Source: a virus | Lineage: Duplodnaviria > Caudoviricetes | Length of the DNA: 54,282 nt | Direction: 5' to 3' (one strand) | IMG/VR virus record: IMGVR_UViG_3300009705_000019 | Span: 1-54,282 of that record | Shown: one piece after another, positions 15,584 through 54,282 of the stretch | How the letters are laid out: every line of letters starts with the position of its first letter | Position numbering within the stretch: position 1 is the stretch's first letter | Notes under the pieces: generated by a model | The model's input: only the letters and a program-made list of their open reading frames with translations | Database searches by the model: none | What the model was told of the DNA's origin: nothing | Translations under genes and position numbers: made by a program

Positions 15584-15820
15584 ATGAGCGCATTTGAAAA
15601 AACATGGGATTTGATGAAAGCAGGGGTCAAACGCCTCAATACCGATACGAACGTTCCTATGCCCTGCCCTGAATGTAGGGGTCCGATGGAACATCAAGAT
15701 GGTTATGTTGGTTCAAGTGGCCGTTTTGTCGAACCAGCGTATATGTGCATGGACCCAAAAACAGGTTATTGCGAAGCAAAAAGGCATGATGTGAAAAGTT
15801 CATTGAAGAAGGTGGAATGA
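15584..15820 (+). CDS. Small Zn-ribbon protein with N-terminal FxxxW..K tag
   Basis: GGTGA RBS. Starts MSAFEKTWDLMKA; CPEC...C...C. Confidence 0.75.
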   Translation: MSAFEKTWDLMKAGVKRLNTDTNVPMPCPECRGPMEHQDGYVGSSGRFVEPAYMCMDPKTGYCEAKRHDVKSSLKKVE

Positions 15821-15821
15821 A

Positions 15822-16226
15822 ATGAGCGATGGGAACTGTTATCAATGCGCTTTTCAAGCACTTATGACTGGAAATCCTGATTGGAAAAACCCACGTTTGA
15901 TTCATAGCGACATAACGCATTCTCAAACAGGAGATCCATATTCTCATGCCTATGTTGTTTATGATAAAGAACTTGATTTTCCCGAACCTGCACCTAAAGA
16001 ATGGGGCGATTATAGGCCATCAATGGAGTTTGTGCATGACCAATCTAATTCCTTCAAAGGATCAGACGACATACCCCGTATGTTCTATGAAATGAATGCA
16101 AAACCAATCCGTGATACAATGCGTGAATACACACCTGAACAAATGGGGGAACAGGCAATGAAGCATTCACATTACGGACCCTGGCCTGATGAAGAAGCAT
16201 TTGAAAAAGCATGGATGGTGATTTGA
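15822..16226 (+). CDS. Putative transglutaminase/papain-like Cys-His-Asp enzyme with C-terminal FxxAW tag
   Basis: GNCYQCA...SHAYVV...VHDQS pattern; ends EEAFEKAWMVI. Confidence 0.5.
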   Translation: MSDGNCYQCAFQALMTGNPDWKNPRLIHSDITHSQTGDPYSHAYVVYDKELDFPEPAPKEWGDYRPSMEFVHDQSNSFKGSDDIPRMFYEMNAKPIRDTMREYTPEQMGEQAMKHSHYGPWPDEEAFEKAWMVI

Positions 16227-16227
16227 T

Positions 16228-16569
16228 ATGCCCGTTCTCGACCCCCTAAAAGCCGCTTTGACAGACCACCTGCAAACGCTCATCAAGAAGTGTTCACTTG
16301 GTTCTGGCAGTTCCGATGCTTCGAGCCGTGATGGAGGCGCAGGGAATACCAAAATGAGCCGTGATACACTGGTGCAACGCATTGATGAGCGAACAATCTC
16401 AGTTAGCGCACTATTCGACACCCAGTTAAGCAGCGCACAGGCAATTACTGAGGTTGCACTTCATGGCATAAACCCCCTCGATTCGCCGTCTTTTAGGGCT
16501 ACATTCATGCCTATTACTAAGAACGGGACAAATGAGATTAGGATTGATATTTTGATGGAGATTAGATAA
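16228..16569 (+). CDS. Small baseplate/tail-collar-like protein
   Basis: LGSG...SVSALF...ITEVAL...RATFMPITK...IRIDI pattern typical of tail-fibre attachment domains; GGTGA RBS. Confidence 0.55.
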   Translation: MPVLDPLKAALTDHLQTLIKKCSLGSGSSDASSRDGGAGNTKMSRDTLVQRIDERTISVSALFDTQLSSAQAITEVALHGINPLDSPSFRATFMPITKNGTNEIRIDILMEIR

Positions 16570-16952
16570 TGTCCGATAAAAAAAGTGAAGAAAAGAGCGA
16601 TGAAAAGATTGCACCACTTGTCGCAGGTGCAGCAAGAGTTGGGGTGGCCGCAGCAAAGAATCCAGCAGTTCGAGGGGCAGTTAGCGGTGCGGTATCAGGA
16701 ATGATGGCGAAGAAGTCTTTTGATACGGCATGGGACTCGATCACCAAAGCCAAGTTCAAAGGCTACACCCGTTCCAACATCAGCGAAAGGCCATACAGAC
16801 AGGCTGAACATCGTGTCTGGGATATTTCACGTAAAGTAAAGCGAGAGCGCACCAAGAAAAGATATGCTCGCAATAAGAGCAGGGGCGTTGTTCGCCCCGC
16901 CATGCGTAGGCAATTAGGATCAGGTGGCAAAAGAGCCTCAACAAAAAGGTGA
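16569..16952 (+). CDS. Basic (Arg/Lys-rich C-terminus) protein with internal FxxAW..K tag; possible DNA-condensing core protein
   Basis: KKSFDTAWDSITKA followed by a highly basic tail; TAATG coupling. Confidence 0.6.
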   Translation: MSDKKSEEKSDEKIAPLVAGAARVGVAAAKNPAVRGAVSGAVSGMMAKKSFDTAWDSITKAKFKGYTRSNISERPYRQAEHRVWDISRKVKRERTKKRYARNKSRGVVRPAMRRQLGSGGKRASTKR

Positions 16953-16960
16953 GGCTTGAT

Positions 16961-18136
16961 ATGGTATTCAATACAGCATGGGCTTTAATGAAGGCAGACG
17001 AGTTGAATGTGGTTGAAACCTATGCTGGCGCAGGTGGGCATGACGATATACACGCAGGTTGGGGTCAAGCGGCGAGAGATCGAGGCCATAACGTGCTACG
17101 AAACGAAATCATGTATGCAGGGAATCCAGAAGAAAAGTGGGCTGATTATGACTTAGGTTATATGCCCGAATTACCAGGAAACATCCTTAATTTCAGCGCA
17201 CAGGATATTATCAATCAATTGAATGGAAAAACGCCAGATGTGTTCTATGCTTCCCCGCCATGTGAAGGTCATTCTGTATCTGCAAGAATGCAGGGATGGA
17301 CTGATTGGATGGGCGATAAGAAGAAAAAAGACGCTTTCAATCGAGCGAGAAACGAAGGCGATTTAGATTATTTCAAAGACCCAAGCGTTGGTCCAACACC
17401 TGGAAACGACGCTGCGAGAACTGGGCGTGAATTGATGAATCATACATTGAAATTGATTGATGATTTACAGGATTACAGAACAAATCATGAGGGAAGAGAT
17501 AAAGACGACCCAATGTATCATTGGCTTGAAAATCCAACTGGAATGATGCGCTATCAACCTGAAATGGGTGGAAGAACATTGGGACAACCGCATGGAACTA
17601 ATTTGAAAGGCAAGGATATTCCTTTCCCAACGATCAACCATGCTTCATATTCTGGTCCATTCGCTGAAATGTTGGGGATGCCAAGACACGACATACCGAA
17701 TCACCCATCTATGCCTTCACGAAAACCAACAGACCTTTGGACTAATGCAAGCGATATTTGGCGACCAAGACCACATACTCGAAGAGGATTGCATCAAGAC
17801 GCACCAGTATTCGATACACCATTAGGAGAACTTCAAGCAAAATTCGGCAACCGTGTTGAAGAAGTTCCAAAGAGAGAAAATGTAAAACGTTTTGGAGATG
17901 CGGGAGTTTATCACGAATGGGGTCCAAGAGGGGCAAAGACAGGAACTCAAGGCATCAAAGGATTTGAGTTAAAAGATGGAACAAAGATACCAAAATACCA
18001 CGCCAAATCATTGATTCCTTATGGCTTGGGCGAAGATACAATCATTGCAGTTGAAAGGGCTTTAGCAGGGAATCAGTCACAATATCCAATACTGTCACGA
18101 AACGACAATCCAAATAAAACAATTTTTGATTTTTAA
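16961..18136 (+). CDS. Divergent C5-cytosine DNA methyltransferase-like protein with N-terminal FxxAW..K tag
   Basis: Motif I ETYAGAGG, motif IV YASPPCEGHS, motif VI WLENP, RKPTDLWT. GGTGAGG RBS favours ATG 16961 (MVFNTAWALMKA). Confidence 0.7.
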   Translation: MVFNTAWALMKADELNVVETYAGAGGHDDIHAGWGQAARDRGHNVLRNEIMYAGNPEEKWADYDLGYMPELPGNILNFSAQDIINQLNGKTPDVFYASPPCEGHSVSARMQGWTDWMGDKKKKDAFNRARNEGDLDYFKDPSVGPTPGNDAARTGRELMNHTLKLIDDLQDYRTNHEGRDKDDPMYHWLENPTGMMRYQPEMGGRTLGQPHGTNLKGKDIPFPTINHASYSGPFAEMLGMPRHDIPNHPSMPSRKPTDLWTNASDIWRPRPHTRRGLHQDAPVFDTPLGELQAKFGNRVEEVPKRENVKRFGDAGVYHEWGPRGAKTGTQGIKGFELKDGTKIPKYHAKSLIPYGLGEDTIIAVERALAGNQSQYPILSRNDNPNKTIFDF

Positions 18137-18372: not shown

Positions 18373-18413
18373 ACCAACAGGTTCGGCGCAAGATGCTTTC
18401 TATTTAACATTGT

Positions 18414-19568
18414 TCATATGTGTCCCGCATGAACATAGGTGATTACTGCGACGTGTGCGGTAGGTATTCCAATCGCACCAGGATCTGACAAGTCCAGCGA
18501 AACGGGGGTCACTTGATAATCAATCTGGTTTAGCAAGGTTTTGAGATGAGCATTCGCAGGGTCATAAACGTCAATAGTGACTAAAGGGGTAAAACCATCT
18601 TCTTCACTTAGAAGGGGTTTGAACGCAAGACCGTTTGGTGCTGCCAATCCAAAAGGCAACACAAGCGGCGTGTTATAAGGAATAGCGGGGGTTATAGAGG
18701 TTCGGTGAACCGGCGTAATTTGATAAACACCGCCGCCGCCCAAAGCCGCCCCAAGCCCTTGATCCGACTGGTAAAATAAATGTGTTTGACCTGCACCTTG
18801 AGGTGTAAGTGTAGGATCGAAAGGGTTTCGAGTGAATAATACGCCAAGTTCAGGGATTGGCAAATTAGCCCCATTAAAGGTAGCGATGAAATCATTTCTA
18901 AGGTTTGATTCGCTGCTATCAATATGTTTCATAGCAGATAACGCTATTGGACCTGCTCGAATAAACACCCTCTTATCCTCTATGGCGAGGATAACGGGGG
19001 CTGATGCACCTTTACCGACTCTAACTGCCGCTAAGACCGTATTCTGTAAGACAAGGTGGTTGGAAGAGGATTGAGGGTATAGCCCAGTTCCCGTATCGAC
19101 ATAAGAGCCGTAAGTGAATCCGATATTGTTTGGTAATCGAGGATCAACATAAACCAGAAGAATTGCCTCATCGGTTGGGGTTAATCCGTTTGGCATTGCC
19201 GCACCGTGATAATCAGGGATTAGATAATTTGTTATTGCTGAAATATCTAAAACAGATGCAGAACCTACATTGTAAAACATTCCATCGAGTTGAACAACGC
19301 CAGCATCAACATACAATTCCGAAGTGCTACCTAATGTTCCATTTGGGCGAACACAGGCATTCCCGCTAACTGGATTATTTCGATTTACTTCATTGTATCT
19401 GTTGAGGGTGATCGGAATTACGCCATTACTTAGACCACGTTCAACACTATTTGTTAGTGTAGGGCTGGTGAGAACATCGGAATCCCTAAGCCCATCATTT
19501 TGATAGGTTGATGCGCCAGTTGCGGTCTTTTCATGACCCTCAGCGAGATTGGTATTTGACAATATCAA
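18414..19568 (-). CDS. Putative structural (baseplate/tail-fibre-like) protein
   Basis: LYVDAGVVQLDG...VLAAVRV...IEDKRVFI pattern seen in tail-fibre N-termini. The start may be TTG 19562. Confidence 0.5.
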   Translation of the reverse strand: MILSNTNLAEGHEKTATGASTYQNDGLRDSDVLTSPTLTNSVERGLSNGVIPITLNRYNEVNRNNPVSGNACVRPNGTLGSTSELYVDAGVVQLDGMFYNVGSASVLDISAITNYLIPDYHGAAMPNGLTPTDEAILLVYVDPRLPNNIGFTYGSYVDTGTGLYPQSSSNHLVLQNTVLAAVRVGKGASAPVILAIEDKRVFIRAGPIALSAMKHIDSSESNLRNDFIATFNGANLPIPELGVLFTRNPFDPTLTPQGAGQTHLFYQSDQGLGAALGGGGVYQITPVHRTSITPAIPYNTPLVLPFGLAAPNGLAFKPLLSEEDGFTPLVTIDVYDPANAHLKTLLNQIDYQVTPVSLDLSDPGAIGIPTAHVAVITYVHAGHI

Positions 19569-20110
19569 TCACCTTCTGGGAGGGGCAGCGCACCTTTATG
19601 GTTTGAATCATAAGGTGTTATCCAGTCAGGGTTGCCGTTGCTTTCCTCGTCGCCTAATTGGTAGCCAACATCCTTTCCGCAATAAATACAATCTTCGTAA
19701 AAATCAGCCGATTCATGCTTACAATGAGGGCAGAAAATCTTACCGTGAACTGGTTTGTGGGATAAACGATGAATGAAACCGTTTTTATCTTCTTTTGGGG
19801 GATATTCTTCTTCTTCTTCTTCTTCATCATAAAGACCCATAGATGAATGAGGACTCATTCGTTGCCCCCCTGATGAATATAATTCTTCTTCTTCATCAAT
19901 GGTTTCCCACCAATCGGACTTCATGATTTTCCATGTTATTTCAAAGGAGTTATCGGCTGATTTGTGGTAGTATTGGTGTTTCGGATCTTCATGAATGACT
20001 TCTTGCCATGAACAGCCTTCAATATCTTTACAGGCAACCCATGTATCATCAACTCGCCTCATTGGACCGTCACAGTCGGGACACTTGCCTAATTTCTCTT
20101 TTTCAGTCAT
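19565..20110 (-). CDS. Double Zn-ribbon protein with internal FxxTW..K tag and acidic tract
   Basis: Start reassigned to ATG 20110 (GGTGGTG RBS, overlap with upstream stop). CPDC..C..C, SFEITWKIMKS, poly-E, CPHC..CIYC. Confidence 0.7.
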   Translation of the reverse strand: MTEKEKLGKCPDCDGPMRRVDDTWVACKDIEGCSWQEVIHEDPKHQYYHKSADNSFEITWKIMKSDWWETIDEEEELYSSGGQRMSPHSSMGLYDEEEEEEEYPPKEDKNGFIHRLSHKPVHGKIFCPHCKHESADFYEDCIYCGKDVGYQLGDEESNGNPDWITPYDSNHKGALPLPEGD

Positions 20111-20914: not shown

Positions 20915-20918
20915 AATA

Positions 20919-22370
20919 TCACCAATTGAAAGCAATAAACGCATTTCGGCCATCCATGAGTCGTTCCGCATCTGGCGATTCTGTCAATTTTTGTAATCTG
21001 CGTTGTGCCGTCTTTACACTTACGCCTTGATCCACAGCATATACCTTTTCCATTTCTTTCTTTGAAACACATTCTCTCTTCGAGCGTGAATGAACCATTT
21101 TCTTACATTTTCCGTATGACACCTTCCATTCGTGAAGTGAAGCATCACGCTTTTTCTTTGCGCTGTAATCCTGTTTCTGTTCGAGCCATATTACTAAATT
21201 ATGCAGATTATCATAGATGATTTCTGTTGCCATCATTATGTGATCGGCGGTAATGACTGATGCCCCCATGATGGTTGCGATAATGTTTCCAAAGGTGATG
21301 GTGTAATTCTCAATGTTGGGGATGAAGGTTGTTGCGGTTTCTCTTATGTTGGTATCATGTATTTTATTTACCAAGTCGTAATAATCAGTAGTTGCATTGA
21401 GTAATGCTGCGTGGTAGGATTCATCGACTGAAAATATATCATAACAGTGGTCGTTGGCGATTTTATCTCTTTGGTAATCCTCCAACACCTCCCATTCTTC
21501 GAGAGTCATACCTGCGGCTTTCAATAAGCGGGTTCGGACATCATCTCGCTTCTCAAGAATAAATGCAGCCAACGCATCATAGCCCCATACCTTCTCAGGA
21601 ACGGGAACATAAGTTCCTTGAAGTCTGTGTTCACTGGTGGTTTGGCGCAGTTCTTGGCTTACATCATTTTGATATAGGAACACACGCTGGAAGAACCCCT
21701 TTTCTAATACGTGGTGCATAATGTCCTTTGGGGGAAAGGTTGTCGCCCATATGGAAACGCCAGATGTTATCTGTATATCAGCCCCTTTCAAGACCTTAGC
21801 CAAATTGTTTGTTGCCGAACCAATAGAGGCCATTGCCTCCTGGAGATAGAGGATTTTCTCGGAGAAGTATGACTTCTTATCATCAAGCAAAACACTTGCT
21901 TCATCGAAGAGAAGTGTCTTGTAGCCGTTAAGCAAACCTTTGGTGACAATGTAATTTGTTTTTCCAGTCGGCTTGCCTTTTTCATCATACTCCGGTTCAG
22001 CATCCACGTGACCCAATAGCCCCGCATCCGAACCTGATGTGAACTTTGCACTTTCAACACCGCAAGCATCAAGCAATTGCTTGGTGAATTCATAGGCGGC
22101 AGATTTACCCGTTCTGGATTGTTGAATCCAATATACGTGAACTCTTGTATCGAGATGCGTTCCATGAATTGGAACTCGAACAAACGGGGCAATTACTTGA
22201 CCCACCACATAGAACAAAGAAAGCATACCTGCGAACTCATTGAAGAAAGAAACAGTATTGAATCTTTCAATGTATTCCTTGATGTATTTACTTCCCTCAT
22301 ATGGCGTTTTTACCAATGAATAATCATACCATTTGCGATCTCCTGAATCCGATGTGGGCTTTAATAACAT
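20919..22370 (-). CDS. MCM-like AAA+ helicase/ATPase with C-terminal winged helix
   Basis: Walker A QSRTGKS, GSDAGLLG (cf. MCM SxAGL), Walker B LLFDE, Arg-finger-like GFFQRVF, C-terminal HTH (VSVKTAQRRL). Confidence 0.7.
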   Translation of the reverse strand: MLLKPTSDSGDRKWYDYSLVKTPYEGSKYIKEYIERFNTVSFFNEFAGMLSLFYVVGQVIAPFVRVPIHGTHLDTRVHVYWIQQSRTGKSAAYEFTKQLLDACGVESAKFTSGSDAGLLGHVDAEPEYDEKGKPTGKTNYIVTKGLLNGYKTLLFDEASVLLDDKKSYFSEKILYLQEAMASIGSATNNLAKVLKGADIQITSGVSIWATTFPPKDIMHHVLEKGFFQRVFLYQNDVSQELRQTTSEHRLQGTYVPVPEKVWGYDALAAFILEKRDDVRTRLLKAAGMTLEEWEVLEDYQRDKIANDHCYDIFSVDESYHAALLNATTDYYDLVNKIHDTNIRETATTFIPNIENYTITFGNIIATIMGASVITADHIMMATEIIYDNLHNLVIWLEQKQDYSAKKKRDASLHEWKVSYGKCKKMVHSRSKRECVSKKEMEKVYAVDQGVSVKTAQRRLQKLTESPDAERLMDGRNAFIAFNW

Positions 22371-39289: not shown

Positions 39290-40921
39290 TCACATTTGAG
39301 GCATGGGTGGACCGGCAGGTGACGGGTTCATTCTAATTACATCATCAATGCGAAGAACCATAATCGCCGCTTCTGTTGCTGAGGTTAATGCTTGAAGATG
39401 AAGTGCTGTTGGTTCGACGATCCCCTGCTTTAGAGCATCATGAGGGTGCGCTTTTCCTTCTGGCTCAACATCAATAAAATACCGATAGTTTCCATCAGCA
39501 CTATTCTTGCACAAATCTAAAAGTTCATCCACAGGATCAAGACCTGCATTTTCAGCAATCGCTGATGGGATTTGTAATAGAGCGTCAGCGAAAGCATCCA
39601 CCGCCATTTGAACTCGCCCTTCGGGTCTGCAATGTTTCTTTAATGAATTATACAAGAATGCCTGAGTCGCACCACCACCCAACAAGATTCCATCATCGTT
39701 CTTCATCAACCACGCAACGCCCACAGCATCCTCTAATGCACGTTCAACCTCTTCGGCAACATGACTGGTTGCACCACAGGCTATTACCGTTTGAATTGGC
39801 GATGAGTCTTTTGTATTGGTGAGCATTACCAAATCAAAATCGAATCGGTCTGTGACCATGAATCCACATTTTCCTAAATCAAAATCATCAATTGGATTGC
39901 TTAGGCTCGAAACAATGTTTGCCCCTGAAATGCGACTTGCTGAATCGAGATCGGATTTCTTAACTGAATGAACGGCTGAAATATCATGCTTCTTGAGGTA
40001 ATGCAAAGCCAAATCATCAATTTTCTTTTGAGTTAATACAAGCGTTGCGCCAGATTGATGAATTAGTTCCACCATATCCCGTATTGCATCTTCTTCTTGG
40101 CGAAGGAATTCTTCAACCTGTAATGGATTGGTAATTTGAACCTGAGCATCCATGCTCGTTTTCTTTGGCTCAACGGCGCAATCGAGAAGGAGAACCTTAG
40201 CATCGGTATTGCTTCGTGACATTGTTTGACTTGCCAAATCACGCTCAATGACAATACCAGGTATAGAATGAGTATCTTCTTCATTTGTTCCGCTTGCTGA
40301 TATGAAATGAACATCGTCTATTGTATTGACATTCCCCACCACTTTTTGAGCCAAGAGAGCCAATTTATGCTGAATTCCTTCGGCGGATTTGCCAGTTAGA
40401 GAACTGAATGCTGCATGATATGATATGTCCTTCACCATGACTTTTCCACTACCTTCTTCATCCTCCATTTCCTTACGATTATTCACAGCGAGTTCTTGAA
40501 GTTCGGTCAAACAAAAATCCTTAGCGATTCGGAATCCTTTACAAATTGTAGTAGGATGGATGCCTTTATCCAGCAAACGTTCCGCTTCACCGAGAAGTGA
40601 ACCAGATAATACCACCGCACTTGTAGTGCCGTCAAAACAACGGCTTTCCTGAGTCTTAGCCACTTCAACAATCATCTTAGCGGCTGGATGTTCGATTCCG
40701 ATCTCTCGGAGAATTGATACTCCATCGTTTGTGATGATTACATTTCCCGTAGGGTCGATCAACATCTTATCCATACCTAATGGTCCAAGAGTTGATTTGA
40801 TTGCATCGCCAACCGCTTTGGCGGCTTGGATATTATTTCTTTGGGCGGCTGAACCATTTGTTTGTTCAGTTCCCTTTTGCATGATATACACAGGCTGTTG
40901 CCCGTTTGATGCTGGCTGCAT
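39290..40921 (-). CDS. ths: Group II chaperonin (thermosome subunit)
   Basis: [44 protein letters not shown]. Confidence 0.95.
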
Positions 40922-46700: not shown

Positions 46701-47930
46701 TCTGGTGATATGACCACCATTCTCAAAGGACATAATGGTGTGACCTTTGTATTCCTTGACAACAACTTTTTTTGATGTTTCAAAGGAGGTTGTTTTGAGA
46801 TCGGAGGATTGCTCACCCTTTGGAGGGAACTGACATCCAGCGTTCTCAACAATCATGAATGCTGCTGCTGTGTGCTTTGAAACATCTGTATTGATGTGAA
46901 TGAACTTGCGAACTGGCCTTGCATCAAGCCACTTTGAATATCTCTCGCTACCATCCTTTTGAGGAACGACAGCATCCATGTGTGACTTTCCATCACCACA
47001 GTATGGCAATAATTTGACCTTCATGAATGCGGTTTCAATAGCGACAGCGAGGATCTCAACAAGCAACTCCATCACCGAACTATCGCCCAGATTGCGAGCA
47101 GGGTTCTCATTCCAGGATTGATTGATACCGACTCGATGAATAATTGCAGTAGCGGCCTTCACATCATCCTCATGAACTGTTGGAGGGGTGTATGTCAATG
47201 GAACTTCACGGTCAATGGTGTGTTCTGGAACAAAGCCCTCATCCATCAAGATTTGACAGCCCTTGACTAATCCTTCTCCGATCATGTTGTTGAAGGCATG
47301 AGATGTGGTCTTGACCTCCATAGCACTACGGGCTTGCTCAAGGAGGCCGATTCTATCATCACGACCCAACCAACCTGCAAGAGTCAAACGAGCGATTCTA
47401 ACATACCTATCATCACCATATGACTTGAGTTCGATTCTGCTAAATCCTTCGGCGGTTGATTTACTCATCAACAATGAATGACCACCAGCATTGACAGTAT
47501 TGCGATTGCCAAATATCTTGACATTCAATCCATCAGTTGATTTGAACTGGATGAGTATATCCTTAGAGGATTGAGCAATGTGAGTATTGAATGCGGTCAT
47601 GGCTGTCAATAGTTCTGGGGCTAACTTAGCAACAACGTGAGTCATGCCATGCAGTAGGGAGGTCTTACCTGAACCTGCTACGGCTGATACAGCAATGGAG
47701 ATAGGCTTGCCACCAGACTTATGTTCCCAGATGGCCTTAGCGAATGCTCGAAGAACATTCAATTGTTCAATAGACCATTTGTTCCCATTACGATCCTCTT
47801 CGGGAATACCGGCTTCGGCATCAGCATGAAGAGTCAATTTGAGAACAATGGTTTCAGCACCAGTAGTAGCAACATTGGCTACAAGGAATACTGCCATGAA
47901 TAGAGCAAAGGCGATGATAGAGAATATCAT
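43740..47930 (-). CDS. UvrD/Rep-like SF1 helicase with large insertions and C-terminal extension
   Basis: AVAGSGKT, FVDEVQD, GDLRQAIY.F.GA, WRG, TIHRYKGDE, YVAYTRAQ. Confidence 0.85.
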   Translation of the reverse strand: MIFSIIAFALFMAVFLVANVATTGAETIVLKLTLHADAEAGIPEEDRNGNKWSIEQLNVLRAFAKAIWEHKSGGKPISIAVSAVAGSGKTSLLHGMTHVVAKLAPELLTAMTAFNTHIAQSSKDILIQFKSTDGLNVKIFGNRNTVNAGGHSLLMSKSTAEGFSRIELKSYGDDRYVRIARLTLAGWLGRDDRIGLLEQARSAMEVKTTSHAFNNMIGEGLVKGCQILMDEGFVPEHTIDREVPLTYTPPTVHEDDVKAATAIIHRVGINQSWNENPARNLGDSSVMELLVEILAVAIETAFMKVKLLPYCGDGKSHMDAVVPQKDGSERYSKWLDARPVRKFIHINTDVSKHTAAAFMIVENAGCQFPPKGEQSSDLKTTSFETSKKVVVKEYKGHTIMSFENGGHITRIGGKGAGTQFGKKGTHMVDGENINTWRHYDSNLGTAVIKPNCIGKVLALLSKEFGDELDNQLDVEIESVAYEASSGSKGTLILSMADQIYLPHALDLQIPEYEKADVVFVDEVQDLSVLKAQLVWRLVKEDAHKVICGDLRQAIYLFCGASSQAFEDNAASIDATFYPQTICWRGTDMVAKTARYACSRFADIARGYWSGIDLPDYDAHRSPLEAGYEFWPKGALPCQITGDEIVKAYHKSKALHGDETTFGLLCRLKKPLADYILTFIKNGIPVSTPATIGGSLGLVDEAFTVAKKSRTGSLDESYKNVNSKTMIGLGWHKMATMKIGQHSLLLRDLENIKNVVIGKYTDLFKGDTKAMAQATAFQDVMGQIELLVAFVSLHRSKGTDSTPKGKNLADALMNWVKDELFSERGGNAVHIATIHRYKGDEAEVMFIVQSVAGEDDDGKPQVMDCFMNKRACEASPESAVNEVSMAYVAYTRAQKQTIVVNAELNGQVCEDVEKRLETAFNRDEVGMMSDTPTDDDSSPQDSPESDSGGDSEYVEVEYHDGRVDTMTLEQFDEFDEINKGTNRTISGYTDETKEIRHMRGDEVAGIFYEANEAPLEAEEAPILPQTAPEPFILLKRGAIKDGSIKAKMHIDASITEPTGKSMCGKSYSIHPTLNNPKSEWIGGKIGSNSTHTHPSGGRPLESTADTEISLRTSYMQGWGYNARNVSTNVMSEDNFCKNCVKKWIGEHGAGAIHPILASIPVQEGLLNEVLFEVQDVKESGDKKYCVLAIMMPATGINKDTKEVFRTESWSSRANFVTYGINDEGLAMRSNHLNSEPYRAIEANNAKGCSQGSKERFKSMTYQWSLELETQITCNQFKRNDKGSIIIPHNHDLLKGIDITDLQGDVADVVAAFIRRYMVARCFESGTRKGAIAEGQTTWNRMVNGHTKKDGEWVIKVTDRRPASKQEWLALPEEASNTLSGVDADSGEVESTQQEVKE

Positions 47931-49039: not shown

Positions 49040-49073
49040 ATCGTCTGCCCCCTTATCCCCCACCACACCATGT

Positions 49074-49085
49074 AGGGTATATCAA
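49074..49085 (-). promoter_or_regulatory. Promoter-like motif TTGATATACCCT
   Basis: Identical to 38906-38917; precedes the first leftward gene. Confidence 0.55.
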
Positions 49086-49089
49086 TCTC

Positions 49090-50060
49090 TCCGACACTAA
49101 AGACACTAAGGACACCATTACAGACAGGCATGACCAGTAGCACCATCGCTATACTGCATGGCATCTCGACAACCCATCAAGACACCTTCCCCATGTTCCC
49201 CATGTTCTCAAAGAGAGAGGACATTAAACAGGCTCGCTGTAAGGGGAAAAGAGAGAGGTATAGAGAGAAAATATGTTGTTGTTTGTCATGTATTATTTGT
49301 CTATTCCTTTACAACTATGTCCTTTATGTCTATCGTGTCTAATATGCACCTCCAATCTGGCATCAAATCCACACCTCTTTTCGACCATAAACAAGCACCT
49401 GCAACACCCCTGCCGTGTTGGTGGGTGTGATGATTTATTACACCGAATCCTGGACAAATGTTGCGATATTTTGTCTTGATAGGGGCTTAGTGGTGCGTTT
49501 TTAGGTGTCCGACTGGGTGTTTCTGTCCGATCTTGACTGGGTGGGTGCTGGAATCGAGCCAGATTGAGCCATTTAGAGCCTAACTGAGCGTGTTTGTAGG
49601 GATAGACTGGGTGCTGGCCTAACTGGTGGACTGGGTGTGCTGATAACGCCACAGAACACCGACCTATCGCCACAGAATGCAAGCCATAACAACAGAATGA
49701 ACTGAGCATCGCAACAGACTGGGTGAGCCTGGAAAAAGAGGTGACTGAGCGTTGGTTTATCAGTGCAGAAGGACACCCGTTCTGCTACTCATCTGCACTG
49801 AGCCTTCGATCAACCTCGAAACCTGCACACTGGGCGACTGGGGCGGGTCTGCGACCCGCCCATTGACCATGAAGGCATCACTGAAAGCCTGTGGACTGGG
49901 TGTAGCCACCCACCGATGCCACGCAGCACCCCGTTTATCGCCTTTCAGGGGTATGTTTGGAGAATACTTTTTTTTTTTTTGCTGAGGCCGCCATTGACGC
50001 TGGATGCTACAAGGAAAAAATCTGGAAAAAAGTTATTGGTTATGTTAAGTAGTTGGGATG
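49090..50060. repeat. Non-coding divergent region with several short-repeat families (candidate origin or terminus/pac)
   Basis: GACA x3 and TGTC x3 at 9-nt period, GACTGGGTG x6, GAGC(C/G) x4 at 10-nt period, a 9-bp hairpin and T13. Confidence 0.7.
49841..49861. other. Perfect GC-rich hairpin GGGCGGGTC-TGC-GACCCGCCC
   Basis: 9-bp stem with 3-nt loop, read directly. Confidence 0.8.
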
Positions 50061-50092
50061 GGTTTATTTCAAGTTGCCTACTGAGCCAATTT

Positions 50093-51844
50093 ATGGCGAG
50101 TCATGACTTTAACAAATCATGGGAATCCATAACAAAAATACATCCTCTTGTCGAAAATGATGATGGAACGGTTCAATGTGGCAAATGTGCAACAGGGTAT
50201 GAAGAAAGTCATGAGGCTGAGGAATGCTGTGAAACCTGTTGGAAGTGTGGCCTAAGAGGTCATAATATGCCAGATGAAGCGGAGGACTGTTGCCCTTGCT
50301 CATGTGGTGGTGAACATGGTTTTTGCGAAACCAGTGATGTTTCGGATGAAATAGAACAGGAGATTTTTGAAAGCCTTGCTGCTGATGGTGCGGCACGTGC
50401 TAAAATGAAAGCAATGTATGGTAAGCCTCCAAAGGGAATGGAAGATTATTTTCGTAGGTCATGGGATTCGATAACTAAGATGCCCTTTGTTCGAGATAGT
50501 GTCCGTGAAATGACACCAGAAGATGTGAAACGCTATAATTTTACAGAAGGTTATGAGACACGTGAGCCTAAAGATGATCGGTTTATGCCGAACAAACGTA
50601 TGATTGGAGATTATGCAGATGAGGAATCTGGCAAAACTTTGCCGATTGTCATAAACAAACCATTCAAAGCCACAGAAGAGGCGAGGGAGAAGGATCGGAA
50701 CTCCAGAAGGATTTTTGGAAGTGGTTTGAGAGATGGAAGCATGACTCAGGGTTTTATCCCTATGAATCATTTGGGAATAAAAACTCATAAAGAAAAGTTC
50801 TTTGGTGGGCAACAACAAGACCCTGCCGCAGTTCTCGATAATGGTCGCCTTCATCAAGTCTGGACTCCTAAGAAAATGCGTAGGCAAGGAATTGCGTCGA
50901 GCATTTTGGATGCTATGGTCGAGGAAGGTCGAAAGAGTGGCTACCGTAGCGGCTGGCTTCCATCGGCTAAAGACGAAGATGGGCGGCAACTGGCTAATGT
51001 AAGAACAGATGAAAAGGGTCAGGAAACTCATCATACCAGACCCTGGGTTGATGCAGAAACAGGCGTTCCTTATTGGCATCGGAGTGATTTTGGGATTCAG
51101 CCAACGGGCGGTCAAGCAACAAAAGATTATCTCGGGTTGATGGCGAGTCGAGGTCTTTTCCCAAATCAAATTAAAGGGCGAGGCAATGATGTTGGCGAAG
51201 GCCGTGAAAGTCGAGATCCGAATAACGTGTGGGCTGATGAAGGCTCTCAAGAAGGTGCAAAATACTTTGAAGCCTATGATTGGGGCAAAGGGGGATCTGA
51301 TTCCGAAGAAGGCAAACGAGGTAATACTTGGGGCTTTGATGAAGAACAACCGTTCTTGCGGCCAACTCTTTCAACGATTATGGAACGTGCTAAATCGACG
51401 GGAAACCATAAAGCAAAAACTGAAAAGTTGATGAGAGAAGCGAGTGACCGTTGCCCTCAAGATGGTGAAGCCGATCCAGTCACAGGAAAAGTTCACCCTT
51501 ATATTGAGGACTCCGATATTAAAGAAGAAGATGGTTGCGACTGTTGGGATGATTGGCGAGAAGCGAGAGGAAAGTATTTTGCTGAATTCCCTGAATTAGA
51601 TTGGATAAATGAAAGATACCCTGAAGATCCAAACGACCCTGATGATAAATATGCAGATGATACAGCACCGCCAGAAGGTTTCCATTTGGCTGAAAAGGTA
51701 AAGCGTTTCAATGAAATGATTGAGCAAAGAGATTTAATCCCTGCTGAACCTGGTGTTTGGAATGATGAGAAAGATGATTTCGAGCATGGCGGGAAAACAA
51801 CACAGGAATGGTCCGACCATGAACGTGATTTGAGAGGCGACTGA
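50093..51844 (+). CDS. Polyprotein-like: tag + Cys-rich domain + second tag + GNAT acetyltransferase-like domain + acidic tail
   Basis: Start reassigned to ATG 50093 (TTTATTT ~25 nt upstream). DFNKSWESITK and YFRRSWDSITK tags; GNAT motif A VWTPKKMRRQGIASSILDAM. Confidence 0.7.
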   Translation: MASHDFNKSWESITKIHPLVENDDGTVQCGKCATGYEESHEAEECCETCWKCGLRGHNMPDEAEDCCPCSCGGEHGFCETSDVSDEIEQEIFESLAADGAARAKMKAMYGKPPKGMEDYFRRSWDSITKMPFVRDSVREMTPEDVKRYNFTEGYETREPKDDRFMPNKRMIGDYADEESGKTLPIVINKPFKATEEAREKDRNSRRIFGSGLRDGSMTQGFIPMNHLGIKTHKEKFFGGQQQDPAAVLDNGRLHQVWTPKKMRRQGIASSILDAMVEEGRKSGYRSGWLPSAKDEDGRQLANVRTDEKGQETHHTRPWVDAETGVPYWHRSDFGIQPTGGQATKDYLGLMASRGLFPNQIKGRGNDVGEGRESRDPNNVWADEGSQEGAKYFEAYDWGKGGSDSEEGKRGNTWGFDEEQPFLRPTLSTIMERAKSTGNHKAKTEKLMREASDRCPQDGEADPVTGKVHPYIEDSDIKEEDGCDCWDDWREARGKYFAEFPELDWINERYPEDPNDPDDKYADDTAPPEGFHLAEKVKRFNEMIEQRDLIPAEPGVWNDEKDDFEHGGKTTQEWSDHERDLRGD

Positions 51845-51846
51845 TT

Positions 51847-52110
51847 ATGTTTCAATGGTTCTATCGTTTCTGCATCCGATCAATGGAAAAAACATATGTT
51901 TGGATGGATTCTCGAATGATACGGCCAGTCGATGATGAATTACTGGGCGTTAAGATAGATTCCGATTTTGGTTCTATGAGCCGTCACCAACTATGCCGTC
52001 ATGCTGAATCTCGATTTAATTTACAAGTTGATGATTTATGGAATCTTCAATCGACTTCCAAGATACGCCTTGCGTGTCAATTAGCCCGAAACATGAGGGA
52101 TAAGCAATGA
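51847..52110 (+). CDS. Hypothetical protein
   Basis: 87-aa ORF coupled on both sides. Confidence 0.6.
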   Translation: MFQWFYRFCIRSMEKTYVWMDSRMIRPVDDELLGVKIDSDFGSMSRHQLCRHAESRFNLQVDDLWNLQSTSKIRLACQLARNMRDKQ

Positions 52111-52664
52111 AGGCGTTTGAAGAAGTATGGAGTTTGATTAAGATGCCAGCGAAAGGATGGGAATGCCCTGAATGTAAAATGCCTATGATGGTGCAAGTGG
52201 ATGAACAGTCGCTTCAATGTATGAATTGTCACGCAGTAGCACTTACTCCGGCAAGAAAAGCCCGAAATTCGTTTGATGCTGATTCAGCAGCCCATCAGGG
52301 AATTGAAGATATGCTCGATGAACATAAGGAATCGGGGGTTCAACGGGTTGCTAAATTGGGTCAAGCACTTACTGACTTGGGAACTAATGTGGTCGAACAT
52401 CCTCGAAAGAAAGTTGATTACAACCCCCGAGATCAATTTCACCCATTAGAACGTATGCTAAACGAATTGGGCTTTACATCCATAGGCCAGTTGATGCAAG
52501 ACTATTTACGACTCAAAGCACAGGAAAACCACCAAGATTTGAGAGGAATGGGCTTACCTGATGAAGCCCAACAAATGGAACAGGAATGGGTTGAAAGTAT
52601 TATGAATCGACAGAAACCAATGGCTGACCCTTTTATCTCACAGGATAGAGGGGAGGCGTGGTGA
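52107..52664 (+). CDS. Zn-ribbon protein with N-terminal FxxVW..K tag
   Basis: MKAFEEVWSLIKMP; CPEC...CMNC. Confidence 0.7.
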   Translation: MKAFEEVWSLIKMPAKGWECPECKMPMMVQVDEQSLQCMNCHAVALTPARKARNSFDADSAAHQGIEDMLDEHKESGVQRVAKLGQALTDLGTNVVEHPRKKVDYNPRDQFHPLERMLNELGFTSIGQLMQDYLRLKAQENHQDLRGMGLPDEAQQMEQEWVESIMNRQKPMADPFISQDRGEAW

Positions 52665-53533
52665 TGATTCGGATATTTGAAGTTGGACCACGTGATGGGC
52701 TACAAAACCTGCCGCACGTTCCATCCACCGATGATAAAATCCAACTCATCAAACATCTCCGTGATGCTGGCTTGACTCAAATTGAGATTGCATCATTTGT
52801 TCATCCGAAGGCCGTTCCGAATATGGCTGATGCTGAACAGGTGTGCAAAGCCTTTGATGATAAGACGGGCTTCTCAGTTCTTATTCCCAACAAAAGAGGA
52901 TATGAACGTGCAGTTAATTCTGGGATGGAACAATTCAATATATTCTTCTCACCGATGGATTCTTTTAATGTAGCCAATTATGGTTTGAACTTAAAACAAA
53001 TCATCGCCAATTACGCTGTTGCATTGCATGGCGTTCCTAAAGAATCAGTTCGAGTATATATCTCGGAATCGTTTGAGGCAGGTAGGGAGGAACTTGCATC
53101 GGCAATCCAAGTTGGTTTGAAGTTCGGTGATCGTATTGTTTTATGCGATACGAAGGGAACGGCAAAACCATTTGACATTTCATGGTGCGTTAGTTTGGCG
53201 CAGTTATTTACCAACAATTTATCGCTGCATCTTCATCATGGTCAGCACCTTATGGAAAATGTATCGACTGGTTATGCCAGTGGGATTCGAGAATTTGATT
53301 CCAGCATTGGCGGTCTTGGTGGCTGTCCGTTTGTTGAGAGTTCTGGGGCGAACCTTGCTACTGAGGATTTAGTCAAGTGGTGCAAGAAGCGAGGCATTGA
53401 ATGTGGCGTGACTCTTCGCCAACTCAAGGCGGCACGAAAGTTGGCACACAAAATAAAGAATCCAACGTTGAAGGTTGCCGCTAAAAACAAATACAATGAA
53501 ACCAAAAGCAAATTGAAGGCGGTGTGGTTTTGA
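52664..53533 (+). CDS. hmgL: Hydroxymethylglutaryl-CoA lyase (DRE-TIM metallolyase)
   Basis: FEVGPRDGLQN, SFVHPKAVPNMADA, HLH, GGLGGCPF, GANLATEDL; GGAGG RBS. Confidence 0.9.
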   Translation: MIRIFEVGPRDGLQNLPHVPSTDDKIQLIKHLRDAGLTQIEIASFVHPKAVPNMADAEQVCKAFDDKTGFSVLIPNKRGYERAVNSGMEQFNIFFSPMDSFNVANYGLNLKQIIANYAVALHGVPKESVRVYISESFEAGREELASAIQVGLKFGDRIVLCDTKGTAKPFDISWCVSLAQLFTNNLSLHLHHGQHLMENVSTGYASGIREFDSSIGGLGGCPFVESSGANLATEDLVKWCKKRGIECGVTLRQLKAARKLAHKIKNPTLKVAAKNKYNETKSKLKAVWF

Positions 53534-54006
53534 CAGCATTCGATCAAGCGTGGTCTTTGTTGAAGATGCCCATTGTTCCAGGTTCTTTCAAGCAAGACAG
53601 GCCATTAGCAGATGTTCCGATTAGATATTCGGCAAAATTTCAAGACCCTAAAACGACGGAAGAGATGGATATGTGGGCTGAGTTTGACCTCGACCTCGAA
53701 TATGATCAAAATTGTGAAGTTAAAGGTGGAATAAACCATCCTAATGATTCAATGTATAATCTGGGAGATCGTGCAATAAGTCATATTGGTCAAGAATATC
53801 CGAACAAAGATGATTTTTATGCACACGGAACGGGTGTTGATGAAGAATACCGGCGAAGAGGGTATGCGACGGCGTTGTATGATATGTTGGCTCGCATACT
53901 GCACGAACAGGGAGAATACAGATTAACTCCTTCGAATGGTCTTAACGAAATGTCAGGTCCACTTTGGGGCGATAAGAAAACATGGCCTGTGAGGGATGAT
54001 CTATGA
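53530..54006 (+). CDS. GNAT acetyltransferase-like protein with N-terminal FxxAW..K tag
   Basis: TTG start overlapping the hmgL stop gives MTAFDQAWSLLKMP; GNAT motif A GVDEEYRRRGYATALY. Confidence 0.75.
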   Translation: MTAFDQAWSLLKMPIVPGSFKQDRPLADVPIRYSAKFQDPKTTEEMDMWAEFDLDLEYDQNCEVKGGINHPNDSMYNLGDRAISHIGQEYPNKDDFYAHGTGVDEEYRRRGYATALYDMLARILHEQGEYRLTPSNGLNEMSGPLWGDKKTWPVRDDL

Positions 54007-54122
54007 AGTGCATTAAGCCCATAGTTCATAACCCTCAATTTGAAGGTAAGTATCATTGTAAGCATTGTGAAGCCGATGCCATTTTAGATTTATTAGATGC
54101 GAGAAAGTGTGGTGGAGACTAA
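54003..54122 (+). CDS. 39-aa Cys/His microprotein (not in ORF track)
   Basis: Own translation: MKCIKPIVHNPQFEGKYHCKHCEADAILDLLDARKCGGD; ATGA and TAATG overlaps. Confidence 0.6.
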   Translation: MKCIKPIVHNPQFEGKYHCKHCEADAILDLLDARKCGGD

Positions 54123-54282
54123 TGACGGCGTTTGATACCGCTTGGGCTTTGTTGAAAGCCCCTTTCCTTTTGGAAACGGGAATTCATTTTGATCGTGAAA
54201 ATCCAACAGAAATTGAAGGACCGCTTTATTCAGGTGGTGACAGTGGAGATGAACCCCGCTATTGGACTCAAGACAGCCAAAC
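54122..54282 (+). CDS. 3'-truncated protein with N-terminal FxxAW..K tag (not in ORF track)
   Basis: MTAFDTAWALLKAPFLLETGIHFDRENPTEIEGPLYSGGDSGDEPRYWTQDSQ...; GGTGGAG RBS. Confidence 0.75.
   Translation, partial: MTAFDTAWALLKAPFLLETGIHFDRENPTEIEGPLYSGGDSGDEPRYWTQDSQ

What the first reader, a model, noticed from the sequence alone, without database searches (positions are those of the whole stretch)
15584..54282. Shared amphipathic peptide tag (F-x-x-[ASTV]-W-x-x-[LIM]-(T)-K) on nine unrelated proteins: candidate capsid-targeting / cargo-loading system
Seen in sequence, 10 copies: MSAFEKTWDLMKA (15584), EEAFEKAWMVI* (16191, C-terminal, lacks the Lys), KSFDTAWDSITKA (16713), MVFNTAWALMKA (16961), SFEITWKIMKS (19948-19916, minus strand), HDFNKSWESITKI (50102), YFRRSWDSITKMP (50447), MKAFEEVWSLIKMP (52107), MTAFDQAWSLLKMP (53530) and MTAFDTAWALLKAP (54122). 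Six are at the extreme N-terminus. Codons differ between most copies, so conservation is at the protein level. F, W and the aliphatic residue fall at i, i+4, i+7 (one helix face), and nine copies end in Lys. The attached domains are unrelated: C5 MTase, two GNATs, Cys-His-Asp enzyme, Zn-ribbons, basic protein. I saw no tag on the replication/early genes between 20.3 and 49 kb; tagged genes cluster beside the structural block and in the rightward operon. Established analogy: T4 internal proteins carry a ~10-aa N-terminal capsid-targeting sequence removed by the prohead protease. Inference: this is an archaeal-virus plug-and-play tag that docks diverse effectors into the prohead, with cleavage after the Lys, for co-injection with the DNA.
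Basis: partly seen in the sequence, partly recalled or inferred. Interest (0 to 1): 0.92.

Follow-up and report, generated by a model that had tools for sequence, protein, structure and literature searches.

The report
Shared start-tag on magrovirus accessory proteins
This ocean archaeal virus and about a hundred relatives begin many unrelated small proteins with the same 12-residue helix ending in Leu-Leu-Lys, probably an address label that loads them into the virus head, though this has not been measured.

Summary
The motif F-x-x-[ASTV]-W-x-x-[LIMV]-(x)-K occurs 9 times in the window against 0.5 expected, always in the coding frame. A tenth copy is C-terminal and lacks the Lys. The window is a 54-kb piece of a roughly 95-kb magrovirus, a tailed virus of Poseidoniales archaea. 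It lacks the head genes.

The same peptide, M-x-A-F-[DE]-x-A-W-x-L-L-K, heads 371 ORFs in 119 IMG/VR loci. These fall into 161 unrelated protein clusters, and a record holds 1-19 matches to the tag's DNA pattern. It was not found as an N-terminal tag in 301 Poseidoniales genomes, apart from one virus-like contig.

Tagged genes lie on the head-gene strand (86 of 90). Orthologues gain and lose the tag. A sister clade puts a different tag (M-S-W-x-x-I-L-K) on homologous cargo.

My best reading (0.4) is a capsid-targeting leader like that of phage T4, cut after Lys by the prohead protease. The tag's Φ-L-K end recurs in the capsid protein's N-arm across three clades. Neither loading nor cutting is shown.

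One unexplained rival clue is that tag type co-varies with the virus's chaperonin type (thermosome versus GroEL).

This scan has found the same tag before, on other magrovirus genomes.

The parts
15584..15820 (+). 78-aa Zn-ribbon protein with a canonical N-terminal tag MSAFEKTWDLMK (tag codons 15584-15619)
   Evidence: Regex hit, HMM 16.5 bits, translation. No Pfam family at E<=0.1.
15822..16226 (+). 134-aa protein ending in a Lys-less tag remnant AFEKAWMVI* (16197-16226)
   Evidence: Core-motif hit. Its DNA differs at 1 of 18 nt from copy 1. No homologue in the 119 loci. No Pfam or PHROG family at E<=0.1.
16569..16952 (+). Hyper-basic small protein. The tag subtype SFDTAWDSITK (16716-16748) precedes a basic tail of about 70 aa. 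An alternative start lies at ATG 16701.
   Evidence: The family occurs in 27 loci. In relatives it is an 85-92-aa protein with the tag near its start.
16961..18136 (+). 391-aa methyltransferase-like protein with the N-terminal tag MVFNTAWALMK (16961-16993)
   Evidence: Weak PHROG DNA methyltransferase match at E=0.003. The 70%-identical orthologue in G001 has a decayed tag (MEFDTACS**) in another frame upstream.
19565..20110 (-). 181-aa Zn-ribbon protein rich in acidic residues, with an internal tag FEITWKIMK (19945-19919). Probable start ATG 20110.
50093..51844 (+). 583-aa multi-domain protein. Subtype tag at the N-terminus (MASHDFNKSWESITK, 50093-50137) and a second one internally (FRRSWDSITK, 50450-50479). 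Weak GNAT signal in the C-terminal part.
   Evidence: The G001 homologue (18509-20038) also holds two internal subtype tags.
52107..52664 (+). 185-aa Zn-ribbon protein with the N-terminal tag MKAFEEVWSLIK (52107-52142)
   Evidence: Tagged homologues in L118 and L102 at 46-50% identity.
52658..53533 (+). Untagged HMGL-like (HMG-CoA-lyase-like) gene embedded in the tag array
   Evidence: Pfam HMGL-like at E=1.8e-21. Present in 33 of the 119 loci and in 8 of 8 near-complete tagged genomes.
53530..54006 (+). 158-aa GNAT acetyltransferase with the N-terminal tag (L)TAFDQAWSLLK (53530-53565, TTG start)
   Evidence: Pfam Acetyltransf_1 at 26.2 bits, above the 20.7-bit cut-off. HMM 24.1 bits. In the AF2 model the tag is helix 3-11 with pLDDT about 54, in front of a better-modelled domain.
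54122..54282 (+). ORF cut by the contig end, with the N-terminal tag MTAFDTAWALLK (54122-54157)
   Evidence: Nine loci hold homologues.
39290..40921 (-). Virus-encoded thermosome (group II chaperonin). It is not tagged. It is a candidate alternative reader because chaperonin type co-varies with tag type.
   Evidence: Pfam Cpn60_TCP1 at 2.5e-129. NCBIfam thermosome_alpha at 488.9 bits.

Best explanation
The tag is a portable leader of about 12 residues, M-x-A-F-[D/E]-x-A-W-x-[L/I/V]-[L/V]-K. It is predicted to be an amphipathic helix, often closed by [A/M]-P. Magroviruses (tailed viruses of Poseidoniales archaea) put it in front of, and sometimes between or behind, fast-changing accessory proteins.

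The most likely mechanism is inferred, not shown. The aromatic face (F, W, L) docks the protein inside the assembling prohead. The Φ-L-K end is then cut by the HK97-type prohead protease. The freed cargo (small Zn-ribbon proteins, GNAT acetyltransferases, methyltransferase-like, NUDIX and kinase-like enzymes, and a hyper-basic peptide) stays with the DNA and enters the next host cell.

It works like the T4 capsid-targeting sequence but is not homologous to it.
For: Shown:
1. The motif is far above chance in the window (9 against 0.5).
2. In 119 IMG/VR loci plus the window, 412 hits lie in ORFs of 50 aa or more. Of these, 371 have a start codon within 12 codons upstream, at -3 in 270 and at -4 in 78. 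I dropped 10 hits in shorter ORFs.
3. The 330 unique complete tagged proteins fall into 161 BLASTP clusters once the tag is removed, and 110 are singletons. Of 150 cluster representatives, Pfam names 13 families, each in one member.
4. Synonymous codons vary at every tag position. For example, F is TTT 0.58 and TTC 0.42, as in gene bodies.
5. Host check: 2 of 301 Poseidoniales genomes match the strict DNA pattern. One is a 106-kb virus-like contig with 14 motif hits, most at ORF starts. The other is an internal, non-N-terminal match.
6. In 8 near-complete genomes, 86 of 90 pattern hits lie on the capsid-gene strand, which holds 69% of coding sequence (binomial 2.4e-10). The arrays flank the head-tail operon.
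7. The tag is modular. A 70%-identical orthologue has lost it through a frame change. Nine of 85 gene families with 3 or more members are mixed tagged and untagged. A sister clade carries M-[ST]-W-x-x-[IVL]-L-K instead, and none of those loci has the AFD-type tag. Four of 52 MSW-tagged proteins are homologous to AFD-tagged cargo, and in one of the two families the homology starts right after the Lys.
8. These viruses encode a protease-scaffold fusion and an HK97-like capsid protein.

Suggestive:
9. A scoring matrix of the tag's tail ranks the capsid N-arm site ([ST]-[DE]-L-L-K-[AS]-D) 1st, 2nd, 1st, 2nd, 4th, 4th and 1st among roughly 30,000 non-tag positions in seven genomes. This L-[LI]-K is kept in three clades whose capsid proteins are 36-62% identical, and in the most distant clade a variable insertion follows it.
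10. A conserved tagged family is a hyper-basic peptide of 85-92 aa, like the basic T4 internal proteins.
11. The T4 precedent is a 10-residue leader with targeting at residues 4 and 7, processing at 8 and 10, and the protease motif also present near the protease's own N-terminus (passages of PMC9026906). Here the aromatics sit at residues 4 and 8, and the Lys is at residue 12.
Against: - No data show that any tagged protein is in virions or is cut.
- The window itself lacks the head genes.
- Up to about 22 of 116 ORFs are tagged in one genome. That is far more than the handful of CTS proteins in T4.
- The first tag array follows directly on the divergent intergenic region. It could hold early host-takeover genes rather than late ones, and I have no timing data.
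- Enrichment of tail-like sites in head-module proteins is modest (top-10 hypergeometric p=0.004 to 0.38 per genome) and was partly examined post hoc.
- The Φ-Φ-K near the protease N-terminus and the I-L-K at the protease-scaffold junction may simply be strands of the protease fold. S78 proteases commonly have such strands, which I recall rather than tested.
- The capsid N-arm upstream of L-L-K is highly conserved, which is unusual for a discarded propeptide.
- Tag type also co-varies with chaperonin type, which an unrelated reader could explain.
Confidence: 0.4

Rival explanations
1. The tag is a short docking motif for another conserved hub, not the capsid. The most concrete candidate is the virus-encoded chaperonin (or the host's). 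The N-terminal amphipathic helix would recruit the nascent accessory protein to the chaperonin or to another viral or host machine.
For: - Tag type co-varies with chaperonin type. AFD-tag viruses (the window, G009, G014) encode a thermosome (NCBIfam thermosome_alpha at 375-489 bits). MSW-tag viruses (G327, G329) encode GroEL (NF000592 at 402-426 bits).
- Every tagged record at least 72% complete has a chaperonin: 8 of 8, 9 of 9 and 6 of 6.
- The motif works at N-terminal, internal and C-terminal positions, as docking motifs do.
- The tag is almost invariant between clades, which fits a highly conserved reader.
- In the AF2 model the helix has lower confidence than the domain behind it.
Against: - The co-variation rests on two lineages that differ in everything else (capsid proteins 36-38% identical), so in effect n=2.
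- The chaperonin is just one of about 20 core genes.
- The large, hard-to-fold proteins (capsid, portal, polymerase-type) are untagged, while small Zn-ribbon proteins are tagged.
- An orthologue lost its tag and kept its ORF.
- No N-terminal client tag is known for any chaperonin, as far as I recall.
- The strict strand and module bias toward the head operon is not predicted by this reading.
Confidence: 0.25
2. The tag is a processing or regulatory leader unrelated to packaging. It would be either a cleavage site that releases domains from polyproteins or activates enzymes, or an N-terminal degron that times the removal of accessory proteins.
For: - Multi-tag proteins place the motif at domain joints: window 50093-51844; G001 18509-20038 with two; and G009 and G014 proteins with repeats of T-G-E-P-M-D-I-A-[WF]-x-L-L-K.
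- The Lys is invariant, and [A/M]-P often follows it.
Against: - Most tags sit at the very start, where cutting would release only 12 residues.
- The only viral protease detected is the prohead protease-scaffold fusion. As I recall, such proteases act inside proheads.
- No data exist on stability.
Confidence: 0.1
3. The helix is a membrane- or surface-binding amphipathic anchor that localises accessory proteins in the host cell.
For: F, A, W and L fall on one face of a predicted helix (sequence). Aromatic amphipathic helices commonly bind membranes, which I recall rather than tested.
Against: - F, W, K and both Ala are near-invariant, which is tighter than membrane anchors need.
- Net charge is about zero, with Asp or Glu at +1.
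- A sister clade uses a different but equally strict 8-mer, which points to a protein reader.
Confidence: 0.07
4. The conservation is mainly at the nucleic-acid level. The 36-nt tag-coding stretch would be a recombination boundary for shuffling gene cassettes, or a translation-start element.
For: - Copies within one genome share DNA words. TTCGACACCGCTTGG occurs in 5 of the 16 G001 pattern hits, all five in its first array.
- Some codons are skewed: CTC 0.52 against 0.10 at L+7, and GAC 0.67 against 0.38.
- Array content differs between close relatives.
- A Lys-less remnant lies at a gene end (16197-16226).
Against: - Several synonymous codons are used at every position, and F and K codon usage equals that of gene bodies.
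- Internal and one-residue-longer variants keep the peptide, not the DNA.
- The sister-clade tag differs completely in DNA.
- Recombination is more likely a consequence that helps cassette exchange.
Confidence: 0.05

Closest known systems
Capsid-targeting sequence (CTS) of phage T4 internal proteins IPI-III and Alt, removed by the prohead protease gp21
   Same: - A short N-terminal leader of 10-12 residues shared by otherwise unrelated, fast-changing proteins of a tailed virus.
- Aromatic or hydrophobic residues near positions 4 and 7-8.
- The leader ends in a residue pattern that also occurs in head proteins.
- A basic small-protein member.
- Enzymes among the cargo.

The T4 facts come from passages of PMC9026906 and PMC5694885.
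   Different: - No sequence similarity (MKTYQEFIAE in T4 is recalled, not from a call).
- The T4 motif ends in Glu, this one in Lys.
- The protease here is an HK97-type protease-scaffold fusion, not gp21.
- The host is archaeal.
- There are up to about 22 tagged ORFs per genome against a handful in T4.
- Internal and C-terminal copies exist.
- Packaging and cleavage are unproven here.
Long N-terminal propeptides of ejection/inner-head proteins of giant phages (phiKZ, SPN3US)
   Same: Many head-internal proteins are processed by the prohead protease at a short shared motif. The propeptide is thought to target the protein into the prohead. Paralogues can share identical N-termini (passages of PMC5694885).
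   Different: Those propeptides are mostly 80-160 residues long and not conserved as one peptide. The cleavage motif there is S/A-x-E. Here one 12-mer is conserved across more than a hundred families.
Terminal short linear docking motifs on many clients of one hub (e.g. PIP-box on PCNA clients)
   Same: A short peptide on unrelated proteins, tolerated at a terminus or between domains, and conserved because one reader is conserved.
   Different: The PIP consensus Q-x-x-[LIM]-x-x-[FY]-[FY] (recalled) is not present in the tag. No reader is identified. The strong preference for the extreme N-terminus and for the head-operon strand is unusual for such motifs.
Amphipathic encapsulation peptides of bacterial microcompartments and cargo-loading peptides of encapsulins (recalled, no call)
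   Same: A short terminal peptide that is sufficient to bring unrelated enzymes into a protein shell. Encapsulin shells share the HK97 fold with tailed-virus capsids.
   Different: Those peptides are not cleaved. Encapsulin peptides are C-terminal and extended. There is no sequence similarity. Here the shell is a DNA-filled virion.

Membership tests
T4-type capsid-targeting sequence system | The same short N-terminal leader on several otherwise unrelated proteins of one virus | tested here: met
   The window has 5 canonical N-terminal copies and 5 variant, internal or terminal ones. No pairwise similarity remains once the tags are masked. Relatives give 161 cargo clusters.
T4-type capsid-targeting sequence system | The virus encodes a prohead protease and scaffold that could read and remove the leader | tested here: met
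   Not present in the window, which is a partial genome. A protease-scaffold fusion and the capsid protein are present in 8 of 8 near-complete tagged relatives.
T4-type capsid-targeting sequence system | The leader ends in the protease's cleavage motif, which also occurs in the capsid or scaffold proteins | tested here: inconclusive
   The Φ-L-K end recurs in the capsid N-arm (rank 1-4 of about 30,000 positions in 7 genomes) and is conserved in three clades. The actual cleavage specificity is unknown. The sites in the protease itself may be fold strands.
T4-type capsid-targeting sequence system | Tagged proteins are found in virions with the leader removed | not testable with these tools
   No proteomic data. 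The virus is uncultured.
T4-type capsid-targeting sequence system | Sequence homology to the T4 CTS, or to gp21-type (L/I-x-E) sites | tested here: not met
   The tag ends in Lys and has no L/I-x-E. I therefore do not file it as a member, only as working alike.
T4-type capsid-targeting sequence system | Tagged genes form a hypervariable locus that differs between close relatives | tested here: met
   Arrays of 4-16 tagged genes with different content in the window and in its 70-85%-identical relative G001. 110 of 161 clusters are singletons.
PIP-box / PCNA-client motif | Q-x-x-[LIM]-x-x-[FY]-[FY] consensus (recalled) | tested here: not met
   The tag consensus is A-F-[DE]-x-A-W-x-L-L-K. It has no Gln and no paired aromatics.
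One known protein domain (paralogous N-terminal domain) | A Pfam, PHROG or NCBIfam model covers the tag, or similarity extends beyond it | tested here: not met
   No family covers residues 1-12 in the window's proteins. The 150 representatives show no shared family, with Pfam at most 1 member per family and PHROGs at most 2. Similarity stops at the Lys.

The most novel reading that the evidence does not exclude
The tag is an address code read by the virus's own chaperonin. Magroviruses that carry a thermosome use A-F-D-x-A-W-x-L-L-K, and those that carry GroEL use M-S-W-x-x-I-L-K. The virus would then mark a changing set of accessory proteins as privileged clients, or as adaptors, of its private folding machine. 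That would be the first sequence-coded client tag for a chaperonin.
Probability: 0.12. Interest if true: 0.9.

Novelty: new variant of a known kind. Interest (0 to 1): 0.8.

Why it matters
Magroviruses are described as globally widespread, abundant ocean viruses (PMC5434244, passages), and most of their genes are unannotated.

One portable 12-residue tag gives a common handle to hundreds of these unknown proteins. If it is a packaging label, these viruses would carry a large, fast-changing set of proteins into the host with their DNA. That set would include acetyltransferases, methyltransferase-like, NUDIX and kinase-like enzymes, and a basic DNA-binding peptide. It would be the first capsid-targeting system known in an archaeal virus, and far larger than T4's.

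It would also make several things directly testable:
- what the prohead protease cuts;
- what the cargo does to Poseidoniales cells;
- whether the tag can load foreign proteins into HK97-type shells.

I found no description of the motif in print. The two magrovirus papers I searched for 'N-terminal' and 'motif' (PMC5434244, PMC11706807) gave nothing on it, and a third (PMC10160649) has neither word in its main text. A full-text search for five tag strings found nothing relevant. Supplements were not seen.

Tried and rejected
- **Co-fold.** I folded the relatives' protease-scaffold (alignment A3) and capsid protein (A4) with residues 1-100 of the window's tagged GNAT (A5). The score was 0.04 against a mark of 0.32. 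The tool's verdict was 'no answer', and the controls were not run. This is no evidence either way.
- **Structure search.** Foldseek of the GNAT model against PDB gave no match at E<=0.001.
- **Annotated phage genomes.** INPHARED has no relative of the tagged GNAT, and only distant chaperonins below 60% identity.
- **Profile searches of context proteins.** PHROGs and Pfam named few of them.
- **Capsid-protein search in IMG/VR.** The search for related loci with the capsid protein returned only close relatives (77-100% identity), because its patterns came from the N-arm. It therefore gave no distant test of the L-L-K site.
- **Protease sites.** I first read the protease N-terminal Φ-Φ-K and the protease-scaffold junction I-L-K as cleavage sites. 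I now give them little weight, since they may be fold strands.
- **Tat signal, class III signal peptide, PIP-box.** I considered and rejected these from the consensus alone.
- **Chance or one shared domain.** Rejected.
- **Eleven of the 119 IMG/VR loci** have no tag with a start codon at -3 or -4. Their hits are internal or at other offsets, some in repeat proteins, and most are probably chance.
- **tRNA scan.** None found in the window.

Full report
**What the window is**

The window is the whole record held for this genome, a single contig of 54,282 nt. It has three blocks:
- giant fibre-like ORFs at 851-15,582, with weak Laminin_G_3 matches;
- a leftward block of replication and modification genes: ERCC4, two DNA methylases, a PD-(D/E)XK nuclease, a PAPS-reductase-like gene, a UvrD-like helicase and a group II chaperonin;
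- a rightward block that starts after an intergenic stretch of about 1 kb (49,067-50,092).

No capsid, portal, protease or terminase gene is present.

The closest relative is a 96.6-kb IMG/VR record, G001, at 70-85% protein identity. The window is collinear with G001 from about 64.5 kb, through that record's end, to about 22.8 kb. It is therefore a partial genome that lacks the head module.

G001 has a terminase at 42,589-44,025 and a portal at 45,243-47,054 (Pfam). By homology and layout it also has a protease-scaffold fusion and an HK97-like capsid protein at 52,722-55,269.

Three things place the window among the magroviruses described by Philosof et al. (PMC5434244, passages read):
- the thermosome;
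- genome sizes near 95 kb;
- a 106-kb contig with 14 motif hits, most at ORF starts, in a Poseidoniales single-cell genome (L170 and L207).

Yes. The strict motif occurs 9 times in six-frame translation, against a mean of 0.5 and a maximum of 4 in 200 shuffles. Every hit is in a long ORF in the coding frame. The tenth copy lacks Lys, ends its ORF, and differs from copy 1 at 1 of its first 18 nt. I read it as a recombination scar.

- Five copies are canonical N-terminal tags.
- One more (50,108) becomes N-terminal with the likely start at 50,093.
- One (16,719) follows an alternative ATG by six residues.
- Two are internal.

Three copies belong to a one-residue-longer subtype, W-[DE]-S-I-T-K. 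In an alignment of GNAT orthologues this subtype occupies the same N-terminal position as the canonical tag.

With the tags masked, the nine proteins show no pairwise similarity at E<0.04, apart from a short zinc knuckle in three of them.

**How widespread is it?**

In these loci plus the window (975 kb), 412 motif hits lie in ORFs of 50 aa or more. I dropped 10 hits in shorter ORFs.

- 371 hits have a start codon within 12 codons upstream, at -3 in 270 and at -4 in 78.
- 24 are ambiguous, 14 internal and 3 C-terminal.

The consensus is M-[TS]-A-F-[DE]-x-A-W-x-L-L-K-[AM]-P. 108 of 119 loci, and 97 of 107 contigs, hold at least one N-terminal tag. The rest are probably chance.

Removing the tag leaves 330 unique complete proteins in 161 BLASTP clusters, of which 110 are singletons. 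The median length is 179 aa. Of 150 cluster representatives:
- Pfam names 13 families, each in one member, including NUDIX, a D12 methyltransferase, a DnaJ zinc domain and an HTH;
- PHROGs names 28 families, none in more than two members.

Records hold 1-19 strict pattern hits against 0-1 for the reversed-pattern control. G001 has 22 motif-bearing ORFs out of 116 by my simple ORF caller.

**Controls in cellular genomes**

The same pattern in 185,579 species' genomes gave single, mostly internal hits in unrelated bacteria. By my rule, 11 of 119 hits were N-terminal, and only the two loci of the virus-like contig have 4 or more hits.

In 301 Poseidoniales genomes, 2 matched. One is that contig. 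The other is an internal site in a long ORF. These genomes are a sample, so the correct statement is 'not found in those searched'.

**Protein or DNA?**

Several synonymous codons are used at each tag position, and F and K codon usage equals that of gene bodies. Some skews exist:
- CTC at L+7 and GAC at D+1;
- GCC is never used for the Ala before Trp (0 of 286, against 0.19 in gene bodies), where it would create CCTGG.

A G-rich Shine-Dalgarno-like stretch lies at -13 to -7, and many array genes overlap by ATGA. I conclude that the peptide is what is selected. The shared DNA probably also eases cassette exchange.

**Modularity**

The window's methyltransferase-like protein carries the tag. Its G001 orthologue has a decayed tag in another frame and restarts downstream. 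Nine of 85 gene families with 3 or more members are mixed.

Another magrovirus clade starts 2-8 proteins per locus with M-[ST]-W-x-x-[IVL]-L-K, and none of those loci has the AFD-type tag. Four of 52 such proteins are homologous to AFD-tagged cargo, in two families. In one of them the homology begins directly after the Lys. The same cargo therefore carries a clade-specific tag, which points to a clade-specific reader.

**What reads it?**

*Evidence for the head.* 86 of 90 pattern hits in 8 near-complete genomes lie on the capsid-gene strand (2.4e-10), in arrays at both ends of the head-tail operon.

A scoring matrix of the tag's tail ranks the capsid N-arm site 1st to 4th among about 30,000 non-tag positions in each of seven genomes. 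Top-10 sites are moderately enriched in head-module families (p=0.004-0.38).

The L-[LI]-K in the N-arm persists in three clades whose capsid proteins are 36-62% identical. In the most distant clade a variable insertion follows it. Both tag types end in [IL]-L-K.

A conserved tagged family is a hyper-basic peptide of 85-92 aa.

All of this parallels T4. There a 10-residue leader targets the internal proteins and Alt to the prohead core, and it ends in the gp21 cleavage motif (PMC9026906 passages; PMC5694885 passages).

*Evidence against, or neutral.* Nothing shows packaging or cutting. The Φ-Φ-K sites in the protease may be fold strands. The number of tagged genes is very high. The first array could be early genes.

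The AF2 model of the window's GNAT shows the tag as helix 3-11 with low confidence, in front of a better-modelled domain. That fits any docking role.

**A rival clue**

AFD-tag viruses encode a thermosome, and MSW-tag viruses encode GroEL. All tagged records at least 72% complete have a chaperonin: 8 of 8, 9 of 9 and 6 of 6. However, it rests on two lineages that differ throughout, and the chaperonin is only one of about 20 core genes.

**Verdict**

The tag is a portable, virus-specific, protein-level address peptide.

| Reading | Confidence |
|---|---|
| Capsid loading with cleavage after Lys | 0.4 |
| Docking to another hub, such as the chaperonin | 0.25 |
| Processing or degron leader | 0.1 |
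| Membrane anchor | 0.07 |
| DNA-level element | 0.05 |

The same tag was noted earlier by this scan on other magrovirus genomes. Those are unchecked AI notes with the same reading, and I do not count them as evidence.

I found no description in print in the searches. Supplementary files were not seen.

Noticed in passing
window, whole: Three 4-bp palindromes are completely absent: CTAG 0 (66 expected from a Markov model), GTAC 0 (94 expected) and AGCT 0 (131 expected). AGCT is absent from all 8 near-complete relatives examined and GTAC from 6 of them. Some relatives also lack CCWGG, GATC, CCGG, CTAG or TCGA. This looks like strong, lineage-specific restriction-site avoidance.
   Followed up: partly
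tag codons in 314 tagged genes (window and loci): The Ala codon before Trp is never GCC (0 of 286, against 0.19 in gene bodies). GCC-TGG would create CCTGG, a CCWGG site.
   Followed up: no
window 52658-53533 (+): An HMG-CoA-lyase-like (DRE-TIM) gene sits inside the tag array, next to tagged GNAT acetyltransferases. It is present in 33 of 119 loci and in 8 of 8 near-complete genomes at about 74-80% identity. Magrovirus HMGCL is listed as an auxiliary metabolic gene in PMC10160649 (passage). A link between acetyl-CoA supply and the viral acetyltransferases is only a guess.
   Followed up: partly
window 24502-25191, 25196-26473, 16961-18136, 20919-22370 (C-termini): The methylases and some neighbours end in short aromatic tails...TLFQEW...QQMTLW...KTIFDF and ...FIAFNW. 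I did not test this. The tagged methyltransferase-like protein would then carry both an N-terminal tag and a C-terminal tail.
   Followed up: no
window 49067-50092: A stretch of about 1 kb without a convincing gene lies between the leftward replication block and the rightward tag and head block. It probably holds divergent promoters or an origin. The long ORF call 49916-51844 probably starts at 50093.
   Followed up: partly
window 851-15582 (+): Four consecutive giant ORFs of 784, 1626, 951 and 1518 aa have only weak Laminin_G_3 and YQBQ matches. They are probably tail fibres. The last one is 75% identical to its G001 counterpart.
   Followed up: no
G329 (record behind L388), 184.7 kb: Two capsid-protein genes lie about 91 kb apart and two GroEL genes about 90 kb apart, which suggests that the record is a two-unit concatemer of a genome of about 91 kb.
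   Followed up: no
G001 82246-83685 (L244): In G001 the hyper-basic tagged peptide is fused behind a 390-aa part that contains an HEYGH (HExxH-like) motif. In the window and other relatives it is a separate small gene.
   Followed up: no
G009 and G014 (L362-L373): The second AFD-tag clade holds large proteins with repeated degenerate internal tags, T-G-E-P-[MI]-D-[IQ]-A-[WFYMH]-x-L-L-K, every 100-220 residues. This looks like polyproteins or fused array genes.
   Followed up: partly
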